Of a stretch of DNA of 55,253 bases, positions 14,464-39,970 are shown piece after piece. The notes beneath the pieces are model-generated. The model was not told where the DNA came from. It saw only the letters and a program-made list of their open reading frames with translations, and searched no databases. Numbering within the stretch: the first letter of the stretch is position 1; each line of letters begins with the position of its first letter. Origin of the DNA: Patescibacteria group bacterium (lineage in GTDB: Bacteria > Patescibacteriota > Minisyncoccia > Phycocordibacterales > CAIRYW01); assembly GCA_040389185.1 (NCBI GenBank), contig JAZKAJ010000017.1:1-55253 (forward strand). Reading direction: 5' to 3'. The translations under genes were made by a program, and so were the position numbers.

Positions 14464-15033
14464 TCATTTTCGTAATAACAGCCATCTAAGGCAAGGAATG
14501 AAAATGATAGTCATATATCCAAGCCAAGGAAGCATGACGATTAGCAACCAAAGCATAGTTTTTTGATGAGGATTCCTAACTCGATTTATTACTACTTCAC
14601 CACTCAACCATTTGATCGAATAGTCTGTGGCCGTTGTTATCCAAGCAAGATTGTTCGTCTGTAGTGTATCCATATATTTGATACCCAATTCACCCGAATA
14701 TATCACATGAATAATGACAAATTCTCTCCATTGGTTCTCTCGATTTATTATCCATCTAGCATTGACGAAATGTTGACCAGATTTTATTCTGCCACAAACC
14801 GATTTGAACTCTTCGAGATTATAAATTGGACGAATGTCAGGCCTAGAAGCTACTAGGGCATCAAACTCTTTATCCTCCAGAGCTTGTGTTCCTAGGGGAT
14901 TCCAAAACTTGATCGGATTCGGTTGCAATTGGAGATTTTCCAAATCACAAACTATATGCCATTTATTGTTAGACCACTGCAGAAGACATAGTCCAAGAGT
15001 GATGATGATCGACACTGTTAGAATTTTTTTCAT
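14464..15033 (-). CDS. Orphan membrane protein with N- and C-terminal hydrophobic helices
   Basis: 189-aa ORF, signal/TM at both ends; TTGACC-17-CACAAT promoter upstream; hairpin CCTCGCACAT..GTGTGCGAGG downstream. Confidence 0.6.
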   Translation of the reverse strand: MKKILTVSIIITLGLCLLQWSNNKWHIVCDLENLQLQPNPIKFWNPLGTQALEDKEFDALVASRPDIRPIYNLEEFKSVCGRIKSGQHFVNARWIINRENQWREFVIIHVIYSGELGIKYMDTLQTNNLAWITTATDYSIKWLSGEVVINRVRNPHQKTMLWLLIVMLPWLGYMTIIFIPCLRWLLLRK

Positions 15034-15238
15034 TTTATTGCCACATCTGTGGACTTGCTTTCAATTTTGGTTTGATTTCGAAGAGCTGTCGAGATGACGA
15101 GCTTTACTAACAATATTGTGCAACATAATGTATATTTGGTCAAAGATTATGCGACACATAATACCTTATTAAATAAAGCTATTTTGGAATATATGTACGA
15201 AGTGTTGACAAATTTTAGACAACGTATATGATTTTGGT

Positions 15239-24760: not shown

Positions 24761-26200
24761 ATGTTTTCAAAAAGAACTTTCGCTATTTTAGCTATTTCAC
24801 TTTTTACCATTTCACTCGGAGGATTTGCAAAAGCTGCAAGTATCATTCCCCAAGGTTTTTTGTTTCAGCAAAATATTAAAATGGGTGCTACGCTAGTGCC
24901 TGATGTAAGCTACCTCCAAAACTTCCTTAACCAAAATTCCATTACTCGAGTCGCAGATACCGGACCCGGTTCAGACGGAGAACTCACCAACTACTTTGGG
25001 CAAAAAACCCTTGATGCAGTAATGCGATTCCAAAATTTATATAGTTCAGAAATACTAATTCCTGCCGGCATCACAGTTCCAACTGGTTTTTTTGGTGAAA
25101 ATACAAGAAAAAAAATAAATGCTCTTTTAGCAACTCAAGGGGGTGGCGCACCACAACCTGTAGCTCAAAACACATCTATAACTACAGTTGAAGCTTCATC
25201 AACAGATCCTTCAACGATCGATACAAGTAATTATCCTCTCATTGCTGCCGTAGTACCAAATGGCACCAACAATCCAAATGATACAATCAGCATCTATGGA
25301 TATGGATTCACAAATGCGAACAATACAATAATGAGTAGTCTTGGAATAATTACAGGTCTCACTTCATCAAATAACACAATTACATTTAAATTGAGCGACT
25401 TCGTCTCATTTGATAGTTTAGACAATTCAATGAATCCTGGGGATGCTAATACAATTCTTATAAAAATAAGAAACTCGAATGGAATAAGTATTGAAACGGG
25501 CGCAATAATCTATCAAAAGAAAACTTCTTCGACAGATGTATTCGACTATACCGAAGATATTGTTTCAACCACAACAGTTGATGAGGATGGCGCAACAACA
25601 ACAGAGTCAGGCACATCAGTAAACTCATTAGGACTTGTGACGCAAGCGGCGACTTATGATGCAGGACTACAAGGCTCTATTCAAGCAATCAAACTTGTAT
25701 CCAGTGTTGATCCATTAGCAGCGCAGATGAGTAAAATTGATCCTATATATAGTATGTTTGGGGGAAGTTCCTCTGGTGGAGGTGCTCTTGGTGGTGCATT
25801 AGGAGGTGCAGCTGGGGGGGCGCTGGGAGGTGGGGGTGGTGGTGGAGGCGCAGGTGGCACGAGTGGAGGTGGTGGAATGTCAAATGTAAATAATGGCGGC
25901 GGAAACTTTAGCGGCAATATTACATACTGTACTTGTAGTGGTGGTGAATTGATTCAACAAGCAGATGTGCGAGGTGGTACTAGAAATATATTTTATAGAT
26001 ATGGAGCCTCAAGAAATAATGAAGATTACAATGTTTATACTAATGTAAATCAAAACTATATCGAAGGATTAACAAAAGAGACCGTCCAATGCCAAGTTTA
26101 TAATGGTGAGAGTTGTACTACAGAGGGAACAGCAGATTGGGTAATTGACTTTCCTCGTGGTATTGGTACAAGTTTGACTGGATCAGGTGTTGGGATGTAA
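24761..26200 (+). CDS. Secreted protein with peptidoglycan-binding (PGBD-like) domain, Gly-rich linker and Cys-containing C-terminal domain
   Basis: Signal peptide; DVSYLQNFLN...YFGQKTLDAVMRFQ; poly-Gly tract; CTC...C...C at the C-terminus. Confidence 0.7.
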   Translation: MFSKRTFAILAISLFTISLGGFAKAASIIPQGFLFQQNIKMGATLVPDVSYLQNFLNQNSITRVADTGPGSDGELTNYFGQKTLDAVMRFQNLYSSEILIPAGITVPTGFFGENTRKKINALLATQGGGAPQPVAQNTSITTVEASSTDPSTIDTSNYPLIAAVVPNGTNNPNDTISIYGYGFTNANNTIMSSLGIITGLTSSNNTITFKLSDFVSFDSLDNSMNPGDANTILIKIRNSNGISIETGAIIYQKKTSSTDVFDYTEDIVSTTTVDEDGATTTESGTSVNSLGLVTQAATYDAGLQGSIQAIKLVSSVDPLAAQMSKIDPIYSMFGGSSSGGGALGGALGGAAGGALGGGGGGGGAGGTSGGGGMSNVNNGGGNFSGNITYCTCSGGELIQQADVRGGTRNIFYRYGASRNNEDYNVYTNVNQNYIEGLTKETVQCQVYNGESCTTEGTADWVIDFPRGIGTSLTGSGVGM

Positions 26201-27208: not shown

Positions 27209-28456
27209 ATGAAATTTTCTTACAAACAAAAAATATTTCTCTCTTGTTTTGTTTTTTTACTTTATTTTATTTTTCCTAAACCTGTAACATTTGCAGCTTG
27301 TGAGCCAGGTGTAGACTGTAGTGATGCTCGAACAGCACAATATGACGCCAATACCGCAGCTGCTAATAGTAATACAACATCTTCTTCCCAATCCTCGAGT
27401 GGCTCATCCTCTGGGAGTAGTAGTCTTTACAGCGCAATAGGGGGAACTGCAACCTGTTCAGCCGGTCAGATTCTCGGAAGAATCATCGGGAGCGCAGTAG
27501 GGCAAGCAATCGGTGGTATGACACGAAGTCTCACAAGTAGTGCTGTAAGCACAGTTAAAAATCTACTCAAAGTCCCAGTTAACGATAGTGAAGTACAAAA
27601 AGGCACGGATGCAGCAGCACAAAACTCAGCGGCACTTAGAAACAAAACAGTTGGGGGAGGTAACCCTGGTGGAGGAATTCTTGCTGGAATCGTCAATAGC
27701 ATCAACAGTGTTTCGTGGGACTCGGTCATGTTTTGTATGGTGAACCAAATGCTCACCTATATCACTCAATCAACTGTTCAGTGGATCAATAGTGGATTCA
27801 AGGGTAATCCCGTATTCGTTCAAAATATTGGCGCAATGTTTCAACAAATTGAAAACGGGGAGAAAACTCGGTTTATTGGGGAAATAAAAGCAGGATTTAA
27901 AAACGGTCAAAATAGCGGTATAAATGGTATCGCAAATGGTACATATCAGATCGCGCAACCATTCCGAAACGGTGTCTATAACACAATTGCAGGATACGAC
28001 ACCAATAATCCTTTTGCGAGCGTCCCACAAATGAGTCCACAGCTTCAGCAAAATTGGAGCGCATTCGCGAATGGTCAGACACTTGTTAAGGGTGGGGGAT
28101 CTGCTGGATTAATGCAGGCAGCATTAACTAACCCATGGAACACTAATCGTGCAGCACAAGTAGCAATTGATCAACAATTGGCACAAGCCCGGATGATCCA
28201 ACAAAGCCAGATTCAAAACGGATATCAATCATTCTATACATGTAAACCGGGCCAGACACAAGCAAACGGATATTGTCCACCTCAAAGCAGAATTGTGACA
28301 GCTCCAGCGCAGGGAATCATCAACGAGACAAACAACATATCAAATATGAAATATATGCGTATCTCATTTGCAAAAGACTTTGACTCTATAGTGAGCGCCC
28401 TCGTCAATCAGCTCGTAAAGGTTGCGGTCAATAAAGTATTTGAGGCGACCAAGTAA
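27209..28456 (+). CDS. Secreted/membrane hypothetical protein of the T4SS-like cluster
   Basis: Signal-like N-terminus, Ser-rich linker, 415 aa, 1-nt gap from the previous gene. Confidence 0.7.
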   Translation: MKFSYKQKIFLSCFVFLLYFIFPKPVTFAACEPGVDCSDARTAQYDANTAAANSNTTSSSQSSSGSSSGSSSLYSAIGGTATCSAGQILGRIIGSAVGQAIGGMTRSLTSSAVSTVKNLLKVPVNDSEVQKGTDAAAQNSAALRNKTVGGGNPGGGILAGIVNSINSVSWDSVMFCMVNQMLTYITQSTVQWINSGFKGNPVFVQNIGAMFQQIENGEKTRFIGEIKAGFKNGQNSGINGIANGTYQIAQPFRNGVYNTIAGYDTNNPFASVPQMSPQLQQNWSAFANGQTLVKGGGSAGLMQAALTNPWNTNRAAQVAIDQQLAQARMIQQSQIQNGYQSFYTCKPGQTQANGYCPPQSRIVTAPAQGIINETNNISNMKYMRISFAKDFDSIVSALVNQLVKVAVNKVFEATK

Positions 28457-33649: not shown

Positions 33650-34150
33650 TTGGATTACAATATGCAATACCAAGTTCCTCAATTCATCGAAATCGAAGAC
33701 AAGATATTTGGACCACTCACATTCAAACAGTTCGTATATGTTGCGGGTGGTGCTGGAATATGTTTTATCCTTTATCGATTTCTTCCAATGCCGTTCTCAC
33801 TCCTCGTTATTCTTCCTCTTGGAGGATTCGCAGGCGCACTCGCTTTTTATAAAGTAAACAACCGTCCATTTATTGATGCAGTTGAATCTGCAGTAAGATT
33901 CTACTTGGGCGATAAACTCTATCTCTGGCAAAAAAAGAACAAAGTATCGACACCGGAAGAGATCGCTCAAATACCAAAAGGAGGAATTTATGTTCCAAAA
34001 CTTTCACAATCAAGATTGAAGGAGCTCACGTGGAGCTTGGATATCAATGAAACGGTAGCAAACAATGCTACAATGAAACATGATGAGAGGCTGCAAACAT
34101 TTGAAGGATTGCCAACCGACATGTTCAAAGGACAAAATAATTTTAAATAA
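33650..34150 (+). CDS. PrgI-family (VirB3-like) membrane protein
   Basis: YQVPQFIEIEDKIFGPLTFKQF followed by two TM helices, upstream of VirB4. Confidence 0.82.
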   Translation: MDYNMQYQVPQFIEIEDKIFGPLTFKQFVYVAGGAGICFILYRFLPMPFSLLVILPLGGFAGALAFYKVNNRPFIDAVESAVRFYLGDKLYLWQKKNKVSTPEEIAQIPKGGIYVPKLSQSRLKELTWSLDINETVANNATMKHDERLQTFEGLPTDMFKGQNNFK

Positions 34151-34170
34151 TCTAATAGAATCCTTAAAAA

Positions 34171-34809
34171 ATGCCAACAACAGGTAAAAGCTCACAAGAT
34201 TTTATACCGATCAAGGAAATCCGTGATGGGGTGGTGGTGCTCAAAGACAACAGCATCCGTGGAGTTGTGATGACTTCATCTGTTAACTTTGCTCTTAAAA
34301 GTGCAGACGAGCAGAACGCTATCATCTATCAATTCCAAAACTTCTTAAACTCTATCAACTTCTCAATCCAAATATTCGCGCAATCGAGAAGACTTGATAT
34401 CAGGCCATATATTGCACTCCTCGAAACTGTCGAACGAGATCAGGAGAACGAACTTCTCAAGGTTCAAACCAAAGAATACATAGAATTTATAAAAACTTTT
34501 ACTACCAGTGTGAATATTATGACCAAAAGTTTTTTTATAGTTGTCTCTTACACACCTGCAATAATTCAGAATCAAAAAAGCTTTTTTTCTTTTTTTGGCA
34601 AAGGTAATAATGCCCAAACACAAAAAACAGAAAATTTTGAAGAGAACCGCACTCAGTTATTGCAAAGAATGGAAGTGGTGATGGCAGGGCTTACGAGATT
34701 AGGGGTTCGAGCGGTGCCACTTGGTACCGAGGAGCTTGTGGAGTTATATTACAAATTGTTCAACCCTGGAGATACAGAAAAACCAATCAACATAAGCCAG
34801 TTAAGCTAA
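34171..34809 (+). CDS. VirB4/TraC N-terminal-like accessory protein
   Basis: SSVNFALKSADEQNAI..FQNFLNS..IQIFAQSRRLDI; sits between PrgI and the ATPase. Confidence 0.6.
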   Translation: MPTTGKSSQDFIPIKEIRDGVVVLKDNSIRGVVMTSSVNFALKSADEQNAIIYQFQNFLNSINFSIQIFAQSRRLDIRPYIALLETVERDQENELLKVQTKEYIEFIKTFTTSVNIMTKSFFIVVSYTPAIIQNQKSFFSFFGKGNNAQTQKTENFEENRTQLLQRMEVVMAGLTRLGVRAVPLGTEELVELYYKLFNPGDTEKPINISQLS

Positions 34810-34830
34810 ATATAAGTTAATCAACCATAT

Positions 34831-36645
34831 ATGGGATTCATACAAAATTTATTAGGTAAAAAAGAAGAAAAACCACAAACAGTTACATCGATCTTGCCTC
34901 AAGAGATCTATGAGACTGGAGTTTTGGAACTTAAAGATGTCATTGCGCCATCAGCACTCAAGGTCTCTCCTCGAGAATTGAATCTTGGAGACAAGATTGC
35001 TCGAACATTCTTCGTTATTTCTTACCCACGATTTCTTACAGAGAGCTGGTTTGCCCCGATCATCAACCTTGATCGTATCTTCGATATTTCAATATTTATT
35101 CACCCACTTGATACTGCACAAGTTCTAAGACAGTTCCAAAAAAAAGTTGCTGAAGTACAAAGCCAGATCGCAATGCGAGAAGAAAAAGGACTTGTCCGTG
35201 ATCCAGTGTTAGATACTGCATACCAAGATCTCGAACAACTACGAGACCAGCTCCAGCAGGCACAAGAAAGAATATTCGAGGTTGGCCTCTACCTCACTTT
35301 ATATGCAACTACAATTGAGGAGTTGGACAAAGTAGAATCAGAAATCAAATCCATACTTGAAGCAAAGCTTGTGTATATAAAACCCGCACTCTTTCAGCAA
35401 GAGCAAGGATTCCGGAGCGTTCTTCCAATAGGCAATGATGAGCTTAATGTAAACTCAAAACTGAACTCTTCTCCACTTTCATCACTTTTCCCATTCATTT
35501 CTTTTGACCTTACGTCAGACAAGGGAATACTCTATGGAGTAAATAGACATAACTCTTCACTCATCCTTTTCGATAGATTTTCACTTGAAAACTACAACTC
35601 AGTAACATTCGCAAAGGCTGGTTCTGGAAAAAGTTATGCAACAAAACTCGAAATTCTTCGTTCACTTATGTTTGATACAGACGTGATTGTGATTGACCCT
35701 GAACGAGAATACGAATATCTCGCTGAAGCAACAGGAGGGCGATATTTTAATATTTCTCTTACTTCAGAACACCACATCAATCCATTTGATCTTCCAAAAC
35801 CTCGTGAGGATGAATCTCCAGCGGATGTGCTCCGATCAAACATCATTAACCTAGTGGGACTTTTTCGACTTATGCTCGGGGGTCTCACCTCAGAAGAAGA
35901 TGCGATTGTCGACAAAGCCATCACTGAAACCTATGCGCTCAAGGATATTACAGCAGACGCAGACTTTACCAATGCAGAACCGCCGCTTCTTTCAGACTTT
36001 CAGCTTGTGCTTGCAGGTATGACGGGAGGGGAGTCACTCGTACAAAGACTCGAAAAATACACCAAAGGCACATGGAGCGGATTCATTAACAAACCATCAA
36101 ACGTAGACATCAACAAAAAGTTTGTTACATTCTCGCTTCGAGATATGGAAGACGAACTTAAGCCTGTTGCGATGTATATTGTGATGCACTACATATGGAA
36201 TGCGATTCGAGAAAAGCTTAAGAAGAGACTTCTTGTGATCGATGAGGCATGGTGGATGATGAAGTCAGAAGATACAGCATCATTCCTTCTTTCGCTTGCA
36301 AAACGAGGGCGAAAATATTATTTAGGACTTGCAACAATTACTCAGGACGTTGAAGACTTTCTCAAATCTCCTTATGGGACACCGATTATTACCAACTCGT
36401 CAATCCAGATACTTCTCAAACAATCCCCATCATCTATAGATATGATCCAAAAGACATTCAATCTTACAGACGAAGAAAAATATCTATTACTCGAATCTGA
36501 TGTTGGGGAGGGAATCTTTTTTGCAGGACTTAAACATGTGGCTATAAAGATCATTTCTTCTTATACAGAAGATCAAATCATCACCTCTGATCCATCGCAG
36601 GTACTCGCAATCAAAGCTGCAAAACAAGGAAGAGAAGAGATTTAG
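34831..36645 (+). CDS. virB4: VirB4-family conjugative/T4SS ATPase
   Basis: Walker A AKAGSGKS, VIVIDPEREY, Walker B LLVIDEAW, KRGRKY..ITQD. Confidence 0.85.
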   Translation: MGFIQNLLGKKEEKPQTVTSILPQEIYETGVLELKDVIAPSALKVSPRELNLGDKIARTFFVISYPRFLTESWFAPIINLDRIFDISIFIHPLDTAQVLRQFQKKVAEVQSQIAMREEKGLVRDPVLDTAYQDLEQLRDQLQQAQERIFEVGLYLTLYATTIEELDKVESEIKSILEAKLVYIKPALFQQEQGFRSVLPIGNDELNVNSKLNSSPLSSLFPFISFDLTSDKGILYGVNRHNSSLILFDRFSLENYNSVTFAKAGSGKSYATKLEILRSLMFDTDVIVIDPEREYEYLAEATGGRYFNISLTSEHHINPFDLPKPREDESPADVLRSNIINLVGLFRLMLGGLTSEEDAIVDKAITETYALKDITADADFTNAEPPLLSDFQLVLAGMTGGESLVQRLEKYTKGTWSGFINKPSNVDINKKFVTFSLRDMEDELKPVAMYIVMHYIWNAIREKLKKRLLVIDEAWWMMKSEDTASFLLSLAKRGRKYYLGLATITQDVEDFLKSPYGTPIITNSSIQILLKQSPSSIDMIQKTFNLTDEEKYLLLESDVGEGIFFAGLKHVAIKIISSYTEDQIITSDPSQVLAIKAAKQGREEI

Positions 36646-38384: not shown

Positions 38385-39377
38385 ATGAAAAAAAAATATC
38401 TCATATCAATCATAATTCTCAATGCGATTTTTTTCGGGTTGTCGACATTTGGAGAGGCAAGTAGTTATGTCCCCCTCACCCCCATCCCAGGACTCACAAC
38501 GGGAATAAGTACAGGTATTCAGACAGGAGATAGTAATGGAACATCAAGTCTTGGATTTGCTGGGTATCTAAGGGCTCTCTACATTTGGGGAGTAGCGGCA
38601 GCTTCAGGACTTGCTGTGGTCATGATCATGTGGGGAGGAGTTGAGTATATGACAAGTGCTGGTGGTGGTGGAGTAGAGGAGGCAAAGAAGAGAATTTCTG
38701 CAGCGATTGCAGGACTTTTGCTTGCATTGGGATCATATGTCATTTTGTATACGATAAATAGAGATTTGTTGAATTTGCAGTTTACGATTGGGAAGGTGAG
38801 TGCGACGGTGGAAGGGAATGCGGCGGCGAAGTACGTTACTATTGACCATGATACAAACACTACATCAAGTGGAGGGGCATATCCTGGCACCCCAGGATCA
38901 CCATTTACAGGAGGATCGACAGGAGTTGGCGGTGGAACACTCAAAGCTCAAAGTTTCCCAAACCAATCATGGAATGACTACACAATGCAAATGGTACAAA
39001 AATATGGACTTGATCAAATGAATCCTTCCGATGCGGAAAAATATTTCCCCGATGGACAAGTGACCGCAGAAGGATGGGTTAGTTTGCTTGCAAGCATGGC
39101 GGTAACAGAAGCTGGCGCAAATTTCAACCCAAGCCCAAAACCATTTTATGAATCTGACGGCCAAGTTTCTCTTGGACTTTTTGGTCTATCAACAAATGAT
39201 AGTGTCGTACAAAAATTAGGATATACAACCCAGTCATCCTTGGAAAATCCTTACCACAGTATTGAGGCTGCGGTCATCACAATGAAAAATCAAATAAATA
39301 GCACAGGTAGTGTTCAAGGTGCCGCAGGTTCAAAACACTACTGGGGACCTCTGTACCGCGATGAAGTATTTCAATAG
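38385..39377 (+). CDS. VirB2/TrbC-like pilin fused to a lytic transglycosylase-like domain
   Basis: Pilin core (YIWGVAAASGLAVVMIMWGGVEYMTS..EEAKKRISAAIAGLLLALGSYVILYTIN); C-terminal SMAVTEAGANFNP, SLGLFGLS, NPYHSIEAA resemble the SLT fold. Confidence 0.65.
   Translation: MKKKYLISIIILNAIFFGLSTFGEASSYVPLTPIPGLTTGISTGIQTGDSNGTSSLGFAGYLRALYIWGVAAASGLAVVMIMWGGVEYMTSAGGGGVEEAKKRISAAIAGLLLALGSYVILYTINRDLLNLQFTIGKVSATVEGNAAAKYVTIDHDTNTTSSGGAYPGTPGSPFTGGSTGVGGGTLKAQSFPNQSWNDYTMQMVQKYGLDQMNPSDAEKYFPDGQVTAEGWVSLLASMAVTEAGANFNPSPKPFYESDGQVSLGLFGLSTNDSVVQKLGYTTQSSLENPYHSIEAAVITMKNQINSTGSVQGAAGSKHYWGPLYRDEVFQ
38472..38825 (+). repeat. 354-bp exact direct repeat, copy 1
   Basis: Identical by eye to 39491-39844 (offset 1019). 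Confidence 0.95.
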
Positions 39378-39400: not shown

Positions 39401-39970
39401 ATGAAAAAATCCTTCATTGCATTTTTATTTATTTTGATACTTATATTAAATACTCAGTCATCTTTTGGTGCTGATGAGGGAGGTTATCAACCCCTCACCC
39501 CCATCCCAGGACTCACAACGGGAATAAGTACAGGTATTCAGACAGGAGATAGTAATGGAACATCAAGTCTTGGATTTGCTGGGTATCTAAGGGCTCTCTA
39601 CATTTGGGGAGTAGCGGCAGCTTCAGGACTTGCTGTGGTCATGATCATGTGGGGAGGAGTTGAGTATATGACAAGTGCTGGTGGTGGTGGAGTAGAGGAG
39701 GCAAAGAAGAGAATTTCTGCAGCGATTGCAGGACTTTTGCTTGCATTGGGATCATATGTCATTTTGTATACGATAAATAGAGATTTGTTGAATTTGCAGT
39801 TTACGATTGGGAAGGTGAGTGCGACGGTGGAAGGGAATGCGGCGCCAAAAATAATTCCACTAACAAGTACCCAAACAAAAGACGATCAAATCAAACTAGC
39901 ACAACAGCAAATCAAACTATTACAGGAACAAGTACGAACAGCACAATCTGCTTCCACAACCACAAAATAG
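39401..39970 (+). CDS. VirB2/TrbC-like pilin with short Gln-rich C-terminal extension
   Basis: Same pilin core as 38385, with a different signal peptide and tail (QIKLAQQQIKLLQEQV). Confidence 0.7.
   Translation: MKKSFIAFLFILILILNTQSSFGADEGGYQPLTPIPGLTTGISTGIQTGDSNGTSSLGFAGYLRALYIWGVAAASGLAVVMIMWGGVEYMTSAGGGGVEEAKKRISAAIAGLLLALGSYVILYTINRDLLNLQFTIGKVSATVEGNAAPKIIPLTSTQTKDDQIKLAQQQIKLLQEQVRTAQSASTTTK
39491..39844 (+). repeat. 354-bp exact direct repeat, copy 2
   Basis: Identical by eye to 38472-38825. Confidence 0.95.

What the first reader, a model, noticed from the sequence alone, without database searches (positions are those of the whole stretch)
38385..39377. VirB2-like pilin fused to a lytic transglycosylase-like domain
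Seen: after the hydrophobic pilin core and a Gly/Thr/Pro linker comes a ~140-aa domain with W..LLASMAVTE (candidate catalytic Glu), SLGLFGLS and NPYHSIEAA. Established: SLT-family enzymes have a single catalytic Glu followed by a GLMQ/GLFQ motif and a DP..NI motif; in classical T4SS this activity is a separate protein (VirB1). Inference: a wall-degrading enzyme displayed on the pilus, which would suit an epibiont breaching host peptidoglycan. The motif reads GLFG instead of GLFQ, so activity is uncertain.
Basis: partly seen in the sequence, partly recalled or inferred. Interest (0 to 1): 0.65.

Follow-up and report, generated by a model that had tools for sequence, protein, structure and literature searches.

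The report
Secretion pilin carrying a lysozyme head
In an ultrasmall Saccharibacteria-type bacterium, one gene of the type IV secretion cluster joins a pilus-subunit-like membrane hairpin to a lysozyme-fold enzyme related to DslA, the Bdellovibrio prey-exit lysozyme; this may be how the machine cuts through a cell wall.

Summary
ORF 38385-39377 (+, 330 aa) has four parts: a signal peptide, a two-helix VirB2-like pilin module (Pfam PF18895, borderline score), a 40-aa Gly/Thr/Ser/Pro linker and a 140-aa C-terminal domain.

The domain belongs to a family of 106 representative clusters. The family profile matches Bdellovibrio DslA (PDB 6TA9) at E=4.8e-37. The AlphaFold model (pLDDT 93) superposes best on DslA (TM 0.74).

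Its nearest characterised relative is a two-glutamate hydrolase specific for de-N-acetylated peptidoglycan, not a one-glutamate lytic transglycosylase. The query keeps E242, S262 and Y319-W320, and probably the second Glu (E256). It departs at three consensus positions: ES to EA, GLxQ to GLFG, and DPxxN to NPxxS. Activity is therefore uncertain.

The fusion is real. Eight of 10 relatives with this head carry it on the pilin in the same slot of a syntenic T4SS cluster.

Other pilins in that slot carry 3D, M15 or CHAP-like heads. Adjacent paralogues keep identical cores.

The best reading is a pilin-tethered, VirB1-like wall cutter. Pilus display against the host is possible but not shown. It is a new variant of known kinds, and I found it in no paper.

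The parts
38385..39377 (+). Whole ORF, 330 aa: pilin module fused to a DslA-like lysozyme head
38385..38459 (+). Predicted Sec signal peptide (MKKK, then a hydrophobic run, then ..TFGEA; residues 1 to about 25)
   Evidence: Read from the sequence; hydrophobic segment starts at residue 4; the cleavage site is inferred
38460..38834 (+). VirB2-like pilin core (residues 26-150). It holds two long helices at about residues 58-90 and 96-124, joined by the loop TSAGGGGVEEAKKR
   Evidence: PF18895 at 23.5-25.7 bits for the query; 29 of 32 aligned homologues hit PF18895 and 6 of 32 hit TrbC/VirB2 PF04956; AF2 model helices 35-67 and 73-101 in model numbering
38472..38825 (+). Copy 1 of an exact 354-nt repeat, which encodes 118 identical residues of the pilin core
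38835..38954 (+). Low-complexity Gly/Thr/Ser/Pro linker (residues 151-190)
   Evidence: Read from the sequence; it lies between the two homology regions
38955..39374 (+). DslA-family (GH23-related) lysozyme-fold domain, residues 191-330
39108..39110 (+). GAA codon of E242, the invariant Glu of the ES motif (here E-A); equivalent to DslA E143
39150..39152 (+). Codon of E256, the probable equivalent of DslA's second catalytic Glu, E154. The alignment register is off by one and unresolved
39339..39344 (+). Codons of Y319-W320, the YW motif of DslA (Y228-W229)
39401..39970 (+). Adjacent plain pilin paralogue, 189 aa. Its core is identical to the fusion's, its signal peptide differs, and it ends in a short Q/K-rich tail
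39491..39844 (+). Copy 2 of the exact 354-nt repeat
33650..36645 (+). T4SS core genes upstream: PrgI/VirB3-like (33650-34150), a conserved ORF (34171-34809) and a VirB4 ATPase of the CD1110 family (34831-36645)

Best explanation
The gene encodes one membrane-inserted protein of the chromosomal, monoderm-type T4SS of a Saccharibacteria-like epibiont.

Proposed steps:
1. A Sec signal peptide is removed.
2. The VirB2-like hairpin sits in the membrane with its short positively charged loop inside and both ends outside.
3. The roughly 40-residue flexible linker holds a DslA-family lysozyme-fold head on the outer face.
4. The head cuts the MurNAc-GlcN(Ac) glycan bond of peptidoglycan next to the secretion machine. 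It thereby supplies the VirB1/PrgK-type wall-opening activity that the cluster and the genome otherwise lack.
5. The pilin core is identical, even in its DNA, to that of the neighbouring plain pilin. The fusion is therefore most likely built into the same pilin assembly as a minor, enzyme-bearing subunit.

What is shown: the architecture, the fold, the family, the T4SS synteny, and the recurrence of the architecture. What is inferred: the topology, catalysis, co-assembly, and which wall is cut. Cutting of its own wall is the minimal reading.
For: Architecture and motifs.

Head identity:
- The family has 106 clusters, and 55-56 of them have the same pilin N-terminus.
- The family profile matches DslA 6TA9 at E=4.8e-37.
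- The AF2 model has pLDDT 93.3 and its top Foldseek hits are the DslA entries at TMq 0.73-0.74.
- E242, S262, G264 and Y319-W320 are conserved.

Pilin module: 29 of 32 homologues hit PF18895 and 6 of 32 hit TrbC/VirB2.

Context:
- PrgI and VirB4 lie upstream.
- In 8 of 10 relatives that have the head, it sits on the pilin in the same slot of the same syntenic cluster.
- The own genome (95% complete) has only this one DslA-like domain, and a search with the Pfam SLT model (PF01464) finds nothing in it at E<=0.01.

Other hydrolase heads on the same pilin family:
- 3D domain, 28.7 bits, above the cut-off.
- Peptidase_M15_4, 53 bits, above the cut-off.
- CHAP/NlpC-like, below the cut-off.

Concerted cores: paralogue pairs share identical runs of 32-186 aa in all 6 genomes that have two pilins in the slot, whereas cores from different genomes are 36-61% identical.

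Literature:
- Most Patescibacteria with VirB2-like pilins lack a VirB1 (PMC12102498).
- The Southlakia T4SS cluster protein SEML1_0006 has a DslA-like (e6tabA1) domain (PMC10633639 Table S2).
Against: - The query departs from its own family at three conserved positions: S243 to A (101 of 104 have S), Q267 to G, and N292 to S. The register of the second Glu is ambiguous. The head could therefore be weak or inactive.
- The query's own Pfam scores for both halves are below the curated cut-offs.
- Foldseek finds no significant solved-structure match for the pilin core. No T4SS pilus has been observed in Patescibacteria, so 'pilin' is a family name and not a demonstrated function.
- In four relatives the fusion is the only pilin in the cluster, which does not fit a minor-subunit role.
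- There are no expression or biochemical data.
Confidence: 0.55

Rival explanations
1. Armed pilus aimed at the host. The fusion co-polymerises with the plain pilin into an extracellular T4SS filament. The filament presents the lysozyme head to the host bacterium's wall, so the enzyme breaches host peptidoglycan rather than the cell's own.
For: - Identical cores with different tails are maintained in six genomes.
- Heads are swapped among close relatives. Only 2 of 8 genomes in the genus carry the DslA head, and others carry 3D, M15, CHAP-like or unknown heads. This pattern is expected for variable targets.
- The T4SS and its pilins are essential for epibiotic growth in Southlakia (PMC10633639).
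- DslA itself acts on prey wall (PMC7511926).
Against: - No filament has been shown.
- In L023 the same head is fused to a non-pilin T4SS-cluster protein.
- In L015 a DslA-like head and a CHAP-like head (the latter below Pfam's cut-off) sit on two adjacent pilins. This mirrors the SLT+CHAP make-up of the donor-wall enzymes TraG and PrgK.
- No immunity-like small gene follows the head here; only 24 nt separate it from the next pilin gene.
Confidence: 0.28
2. Catalytically dead head. The lysozyme-fold domain has lost activity and serves as a peptidoglycan- or glycan-binding (adhesive or docking) module on the pilin.
For: The motifs read EA for ES, GLFG for GLxQ and NPxxS for DPxxN. The DslA paper notes that inactive superfamily members keep the YW motif.
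Against: - The general-acid Glu (E242) is retained. It is precisely the residue replaced in the known inactive lysozyme-like proteins.
- S262 and the YW motif are retained, and a Glu is conserved next to the E154 column in the query and in its closest relative P0002.
- The model is confidently folded.
Confidence: 0.14
3. Assembly artefact. The 354-nt exact repeat caused a false join of a pilin gene to an unrelated lysozyme gene.
For: Logan's contigs break at both ends of the repeat, and the repeat is collapsed into one 354-nt contig.
Against: - The 725-nt contig that carries the head overlaps the repeat at both of its ends. The only path that uses all pieces is the one in the window.
- Eight relatives have the same fusion in the same slot. 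Four of them have no second pilin and hence no repeat.
- Fifty-five or 56 independent clusters have this architecture.
Confidence: 0.02

Closest known systems
DslA (Bd0314) of Bdellovibrio bacteriovorus, the deacetylation-specific lysozyme (PDB 6TA9/6TAB/6TAD/6TAF; PMC7511926)
   Same: - It is the best sequence-profile match (E=4.8e-37 for the family profile) and the best structural match (TMq 0.74).
- Shared features are the ES-motif Glu, the Ser that holds the second Glu (S166 = S262), the G-L-x motif and the YW loop motif. Most family members also share the Y-x-E second Glu.
   Different: - Identity to the query is only about 19%.
- The query has EA instead of ES, GLFG instead of GLLQ, and a beta-hairpin about six residues shorter.
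- DslA is a soluble periplasmic enzyme of a diderm predator. This head is the C-terminus of a membrane pilin module in a monoderm-type T4SS cluster.
- Substrate preference has not been tested here.
VirB2-like pilins (Pfam PF18895) of the Patescibacteria T4SS, e.g. SEML1_0014-0019 of Southlakia epibionticum (PMC10633639; PMC12102498)
   Same: The signal peptide plus two-helix hairpin is the same, and the Pfam family is the same. The gene lies in the virB4 cluster. Several pilin genes occur per genome, including a separate 7-gene array on contig C12.
   Different: - Described pilins are short (about 100-190 aa) and carry no enzyme.
- Described arrays are at most 54% identical. Here the two cluster pilins share a core that is 100% identical.
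- The C-terminal enzyme head is not mentioned in these papers.
Peptidoglycan hydrolases of monoderm T4SSs: PrgK (pCF10), TraG (pIP501), CwlT (ICEBs1); also SEML1_0006 of Southlakia
   Same: These are membrane-tethered, extracytoplasmic wall-cutting enzymes encoded in the T4SS cluster. SEML1_0006 even contains a DslA-like (e6tabA1) domain. The roles of the others are summarised in PMC12102498.
   Different: Those enzymes are anchored by a simple N-terminal helix and carry several hydrolase domains in one chain. Here a single head is carried on a pilin-family module. Second enzyme types, where present in relatives, sit on a second pilin.
VirB1 / Slt70-type lytic transglycosylases (Pfam SLT PF01464, GH23 family 1)
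   Same: They share the lysozyme superfamily fold, the ES-type catalytic Glu on the central helix, and the G-L-x-Q and D-P-x-x-N-I motifs at family level. Forty-five of 46 family members hit SLT at E<=0.1.
   Different: - The query scores below SLT's cut-off (15.4-18.8 bits against 21.3).
- The family has a second conserved Glu and a YW motif in place of AYNxG, as in the hydrolase DslA.
- Formation of 1,6-anhydro-MurNAc is therefore not expected, although this was not tested.

Membership tests
PF18895 T4SS_pilin / VirB2-like pilin | Match to the Pfam model above its gathering score (26.6 bits) | tested here: inconclusive
   The query scores 23.5 bits as the whole protein and 25.7 as the core alone. 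The genome-frame search reports 26.3 bits, or '26.6 with its neighbours'. Twenty-nine of 32 aligned homologues match at E<=0.01, the best at 4.5e-11.
PF18895 T4SS_pilin / VirB2-like pilin | Signal peptide followed by a hairpin of two hydrophobic helices with a short charged loop | tested here: met
   Hydrophobic segments start at residues 4, 62 and 103. The AF2 model has two long helices with pLDDT 85-90.
PF18895 T4SS_pilin / VirB2-like pilin | Encoded in a T4SS cluster near virB4 | tested here: met
   VirB4 (NF045971, 2e-114) and PrgI lie 1.7-4.7 kb upstream on the same strand. The synteny holds in 10 relatives.
PF18895 T4SS_pilin / VirB2-like pilin | Structural similarity to solved conjugative pilins (VirB2, TraA) | tested here: inconclusive
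   Foldseek of the core model against the PDB gave no hit at E<=0.001. Helical hairpins discriminate poorly. A profile search against PDB sequences also found nothing.
PF18895 T4SS_pilin / VirB2-like pilin | Polymerises into an extracellular filament | not testable with these tools
   This needs microscopy or biochemistry. The 2025 review speaks only of a 'potential to elaborate conjugative pili'.
DslA-like lysozymes (GH23-related) | Sequence homology to DslA | tested here: met
   The family profile A1, whose first row is the query, hits 6TA9 at E=4.8e-37 over positions 8-147. The query alone does not reach DslA by phmmer.
DslA-like lysozymes (GH23-related) | DslA-type lysozyme fold | tested here: met
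   The model has pLDDT 93.3 and pTM 0.89. The top three Foldseek hits are DslA entries, at TMq 0.73-0.74 and probability 1.00.
DslA-like lysozymes (GH23-related) | General-acid Glu of the ES motif (DslA E143/S144) | tested here: met
   E242 is present and is invariant in 104 of 104 sequences. The following Ser is Ala in the query only (101 of 104 have S).
DslA-like lysozymes (GH23-related) | Second catalytic Glu on strand beta-1 (E154), held by S166 | tested here: inconclusive
   S262 aligns with S166. MAFFT puts Y255 in the E154 column with E256 next to it. The aromatic-x-E pattern (F254-Y-E256, and P0002's F-I-E) suggests that E256 is the equivalent. No model coordinates were available to settle the point.
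DslA-like lysozymes (GH23-related) | YW loop motif (Y228-W229) linked to rejection of acetylated GlcNAc | tested here: met
   Y319-W320 are present, and 97 of 100 relatives have YW.
DslA-like lysozymes (GH23-related) | Hydrolysis of GlcNAc-deacetylated but not acetylated peptidoglycan | not testable with these tools
   This needs an enzyme assay. The genome does encode two CE4 (PF01522) deacetylases, but that family is common.
SLT / VirB1 lytic transglycosylase (PF01464) | Match above Pfam's gathering score (21.3 bits) | tested here: not met
   The query scores 15.4 bits as the whole protein and 18.8 as the domain alone. The genome-wide SLT search finds nothing at E<=0.01.
SLT / VirB1 lytic transglycosylase (PF01464) | Motifs ES, GLMQ and AYNxG, with one catalytic acid only | tested here: not met
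   The query has EA, GLFG and HYWGP. Most of the family has a second conserved Glu.

The most novel reading that the evidence does not exclude
The T4SS of these Saccharibacteria builds an enzymatically armed filament. Cargo pilins and plain pilins are kept identical in their cores by gene conversion, so that they co-polymerise. The filament then presents a lineage-specific, swappable kit of wall-degrading heads to the host bacterium's wall at the contact site. In this genome the head is a DslA-type lysozyme that may prefer de-N-acetylated, lysozyme-resistant peptidoglycan. In relatives the heads are 3D, M15 or CHAP-like. This would explain why the T4SS and its pilins are essential for epibiotic growth.
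Probability: 0.25. Interest if true: 0.85.

Novelty: new variant of a known kind. Interest (0 to 1): 0.6.

Why it matters
The T4SS is the only secretion machine shown to be essential for the epibiotic life of a cultivated Patescibacterium, and what it does is unknown. The 2025 survey of 3,035 genomes noted that most genomes with VirB2-like pilins lack a VirB1 wall hydrolase, and it left open who cuts the wall.

A hydrolase built onto the pilin answers that question for this lineage. It also gives concrete proteins to test:
- a 145-residue head that can be assayed on acetylated and on deacetylated peptidoglycan;
- a plain/cargo pilin pair with identical cores, suited to co-assembly experiments.

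The link to DslA extends a family known from a single predator to epibionts. The DslA authors had reported finding no homologues in the epibiotic predators they examined (B. exovorus and Micavibrio). Enzymes active on de-N-acetylated walls are also of practical interest against lysozyme-resistant Gram-positive bacteria.

Tried and rejected
1. A phmmer search of the whole protein against the PDB gave CpcN/CpcJ phycobilisome linkers at E=8e-9. I rejected this. Each matched stretch is individually insignificant (i-E 2-14), and the total is inflated because the target repeats one domain. The same artefact gave WD40 hits for another tail.
2. The word-index homologue search on residues 186-330 found only the query itself. 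The exhaustive HMMER search was needed.
3. The genome-contig scan with the single protein returned one locus, in which only the pilin half matched. It was useful for naming the taxon. That MAG is titled Candidatus Saccharibacteria, and it is the same contig as G405, which is in the window's genus.
4. PHROGs and NCBIfam gave nothing for the fusion.
5. An even sample of 400 genomes across the phylum gave no strong match outside the query's own order.
6. Foldseek and a PDB profile search on the pilin core gave no significant hit.
7. PDB sequence searches on the unknown tails of L001 and L019 and on ORF 24761-26200 were uninformative. My motif-based guesses for several tails (RlpA/DPBB-like, LAS-like) are therefore unverified. 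Pfam recognised only 2 of the 10 tails scanned.
8. An effector-immunity pair was considered. No small variable gene follows the head here or in the relatives examined.
9. An assembly artefact was considered and rejected.

Full report
**What is there**

It has four parts:
- an N-terminal signal-peptide-like segment;
- a hydrophobic two-segment core;
- a Gly/Thr/Ser/Pro-rich linker (residues 151-190);
- a C-terminal domain of about 140 residues.

Taken alone, the query scores just under Pfam's cut-offs for both halves. T4SS_pilin PF18895 gives 23.5 bits against a cut-off of 26.6. SLT PF01464 gives 15.4 bits against 21.3.

The next ORF (39401-39970, 189 aa) is a second pilin. Residues 29-148 of the two proteins are identical, and they are encoded by an exact 354-nt direct repeat.

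The genes upstream on the same strand are a PrgI/VirB3-like protein and a VirB4 ATPase of the CD1110 family at 2e-114. The setting is therefore a monoderm-type T4SS cluster. It lies between rsmA and jag/yidC.

**The head**

The word-index search found only the query itself. An exhaustive HMMER search of residues 186-330 against 1.84 billion representative proteins found 106 relatives at E<=1e-3 and 51 at E<=1e-10.

In an alignment of 104 domains, E242, S262 and G264 are invariant. Also strongly conserved are S243, L265, S269, P289, N292, I299, I310 and Y319-W320.

A profile of 46 members matches one solved protein far above all others: PDB 6TA9/6TAB/6TAD/6TAF, at E=4.8e-37. The classical lytic transglycosylases MltE, MltC, Slt70 and EtgA score only E=0.004-0.6. 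Forty-five of the 46 members hit Pfam SLT at E<=0.1.

With that alignment, AlphaFold2 gives a confident model (pLDDT 93.3, pTM 0.89). Its three best Foldseek matches in the PDB are the same entries (TMq 0.73-0.74, probability 1.0). C-type lysozymes follow.

6TA9 is DslA (Bd0314) of Bdellovibrio bacteriovorus. It is a lysozyme that hydrolyses only GlcNAc-deacetylated peptidoglycan and helps the predator leave its prey. E143 of the ES motif is its general acid and E154 on strand beta-1 is its general base. S166 holds E154 in place. The Y228-W229 loop is proposed to exclude the acetyl group (PMC7511926).

Mapped onto the query, these residues are E242, S262 and Y319-W320. All are present. A Glu (E256) lies one column away from E154, in an aromatic-x-Glu pattern that the closest relative shares.

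The query is atypical at three conserved positions:
- A243, where 101 of 104 sequences have Ser;
- G267, where 73 have Gln and 29 have Ser;
- S292, where 94 have Asn.

The fold and family are therefore settled. Catalytic competence is plausible but uncertain.

**The pilin half**

An alignment of 32 N-terminal modules shows that 29 hit PF18895 (best 4.5e-11) and 6 also hit TrbC/VirB2 PF04956. The AlphaFold model has two long helices. Foldseek and a PDB profile search find no significant solved relative. This is expected for a helical hairpin, so those results are inconclusive.

The literature treats PF18895 proteins as the VirB2-like pilins of the Patescibacteria T4SS. They are essential in Southlakia epibionticum, and no pilus has yet been seen (PMC10633639, PMC12102498, PMC12857230).

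**Is the fusion real?**

Logan's contigs from the best-holding run break at the repeat, as short-word assemblies do. However, a 725-nt contig that carries the head overlaps the repeat at both of its ends. Only the window's order of pieces uses every contig.

More decisively, 55-56 of the 106 head-bearing clusters carry the same pilin N-terminus.

Among 150 relatives from the same order, 10 genomes have a strong match to the head. I fetched all ten neighbourhoods.
- In eight, the head is on a pilin in the same slot of the same syntenic cluster. The gene order is VirB6-like, PrgI, VirB4, two conserved ORFs, pilin(s), a 450-aa ORF, then jag/yidC. Four of these eight have no second pilin and hence no repeat.
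- In one (L023), the head is instead on the C-terminus of another cluster protein, the homologue of ORF 27209-28456.
- In one (L024), it is fused to a YkuD domain on a short contig.

**Distribution**

The head is rare. It gave no strong match in 400 genomes sampled evenly across the phylum. It is found in 10 of 150 relatives and in 2 of 8 genomes of the window's own genus.

The pilin module, by contrast, is present in 138 of 151 genomes of the order, usually in long frames.

Among 38 pilin ORFs taken from the 30 best loci, 28 have tails of 90 residues or more. Nine tails are DslA-like. Among the other tails, Pfam recognises a 3D domain (28.7 bits, above the cut-off) and Peptidase_M15_4 (53 bits). 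It gives CHAP/NlpC below the cut-off. Some tails are coiled-coil, and several are unrecognised.

One NCBI record of a homologue is named only 'pilin'.

The window's genus is labelled Candidatus Saccharibacteria. Locus L001 from a named MAG is the same contig as G405.

**Concerted cores**

In all six genomes that have two pilins in the slot, the paralogues share identical runs of 118, 114, 61, 81, 32 and 186 residues. Cores from different genomes are only 36-61% identical. Published pilin arrays reach at most 54% identity.

This points to recurrent gene conversion, or to selection for identical cores with different tails. I read it as a requirement that the two proteins fit into one assembly.

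**How it most likely works**

Steps that are shown:
- the protein has a pilin module plus a lysozyme-fold head;
- it is part of the T4SS cluster;
- the architecture recurs.

Steps that are inferred:
- From VirB2 topology and the positively charged inter-helix loop, I infer that the C-terminus, and so the head, is outside the membrane.
- The head is the only DslA-like domain in the 95%-complete genome, and a search with the Pfam SLT model finds nothing there. Pfam scans recognised no other glycosidase domain in the ten other cluster ORFs. I therefore infer that the head is the cluster's VirB1/PrgK-like wall cutter.
- It is tethered to the machine through the pilin module and probably co-assembles with the plain pilin.

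Which wall it cuts is open. Three observations favour the conventional reading that it cuts its own wall:
- the L023 arrangement, with the head on a non-pilin cluster protein;
- the DslA-like plus CHAP-like pair on two pilins in L015, which echoes the SLT+CHAP make-up of TraG and PrgK;
- the DslA-like domain in Southlakia's SEML1_0006.

Head swapping within a genus and the conserved-core design favour a host-directed, displayed enzyme. I put the tethered wall-cutter reading at 0.55, the armed-pilus reading at about 0.28, a dead binding head at 0.14 and an assembly artefact at 0.02.

**Comparison and novelty**

Both parts belong to known kinds: PF18895 pilins and DslA-like GH23-related lysozymes. 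I do not file the head as an SLT/VirB1 lytic transglycosylase. It fails that model's cut-off and motif set, and it resembles a two-Glu hydrolase.

The fusion itself, the identical-core plain/cargo pair and the family of hydrolase-tailed pilins are not mentioned in the three papers on the Patescibacteria T4SS that I read. Four full-text searches also did not find them.

Earlier notes of this scan report similar pilin-hydrolase fusions in other genomes, and two of them also name DslA. They agree with my result, but they are unchecked AI notes and not independent evidence.

Verdict: a new variant of a known kind, with interest 0.6.

Noticed in passing
window 38472-38825 and 39491-39844; loci L001, L015, L016, L018, L019: The cores of adjacent T4SS-cluster pilin paralogues evolve in concert. 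Identical runs of 32-186 aa occur within each of six genomes, against 36-61% identity between genomes. Published Patescibacteria pilin arrays are at most 54% identical.
   Followed up: partly
L045 (G417), L046 (G419), L057 (G415), L062 (G462), L015:10844-11800 (G409): The same pilin family carries other wall-hydrolase heads. Pfam finds a 3D domain (28.7 bits) and Peptidase_M15_4 (53 bits) above the cut-offs, and CHAP/NlpC below the cut-off. At least six further tails of 145-200 aa are unrecognised by Pfam. By motif they look RlpA/DPBB-like or LAS-like, but this is unverified.
   Followed up: partly
L023:13632-15602 (G539): Here the DslA-like head is on the C-terminus of the 656-aa homologue of window ORF 27209-28456, another T4SS-cluster protein. 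That genome's pilin (246 aa) has no head.
   Followed up: partly
L016:8979-10403 (G402, same genus): The fusion ORF (474 aa) contains two tandem copies of the pilin core before the DslA-like head, with an identical run of 89 aa between them. A third near-identical core lies in the next gene.
   Followed up: no
L024:1997-3643 (G468): A 548-aa protein joins a DslA-like domain (residues 73-206) to a C-terminal YkuD L,D-transpeptidase domain (3e-15). It has no pilin module.
   Followed up: no
own genome G000, contig C12:6343-9060: A separate tandem array of seven PF18895 pilin genes (frames of 108-188 aa) lies away from the T4SS cluster.
   Followed up: no
own genome G000, contig C6:8453-8857 and 14688-15074: The genome has two CE4 polysaccharide deacetylase (PF01522) genes. 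They could in principle make the de-N-acetylated substrate that DslA-type enzymes prefer, but the family is common and nothing links them to the T4SS.
   Followed up: no
window 24761-26200: The first gene of the cluster (479 aa) has a PG_binding_1 match just under the cut-off (22.4 against 23 bits). The rest of the protein is unrecognised, and a PDB sequence search gave nothing.
   Followed up: partly
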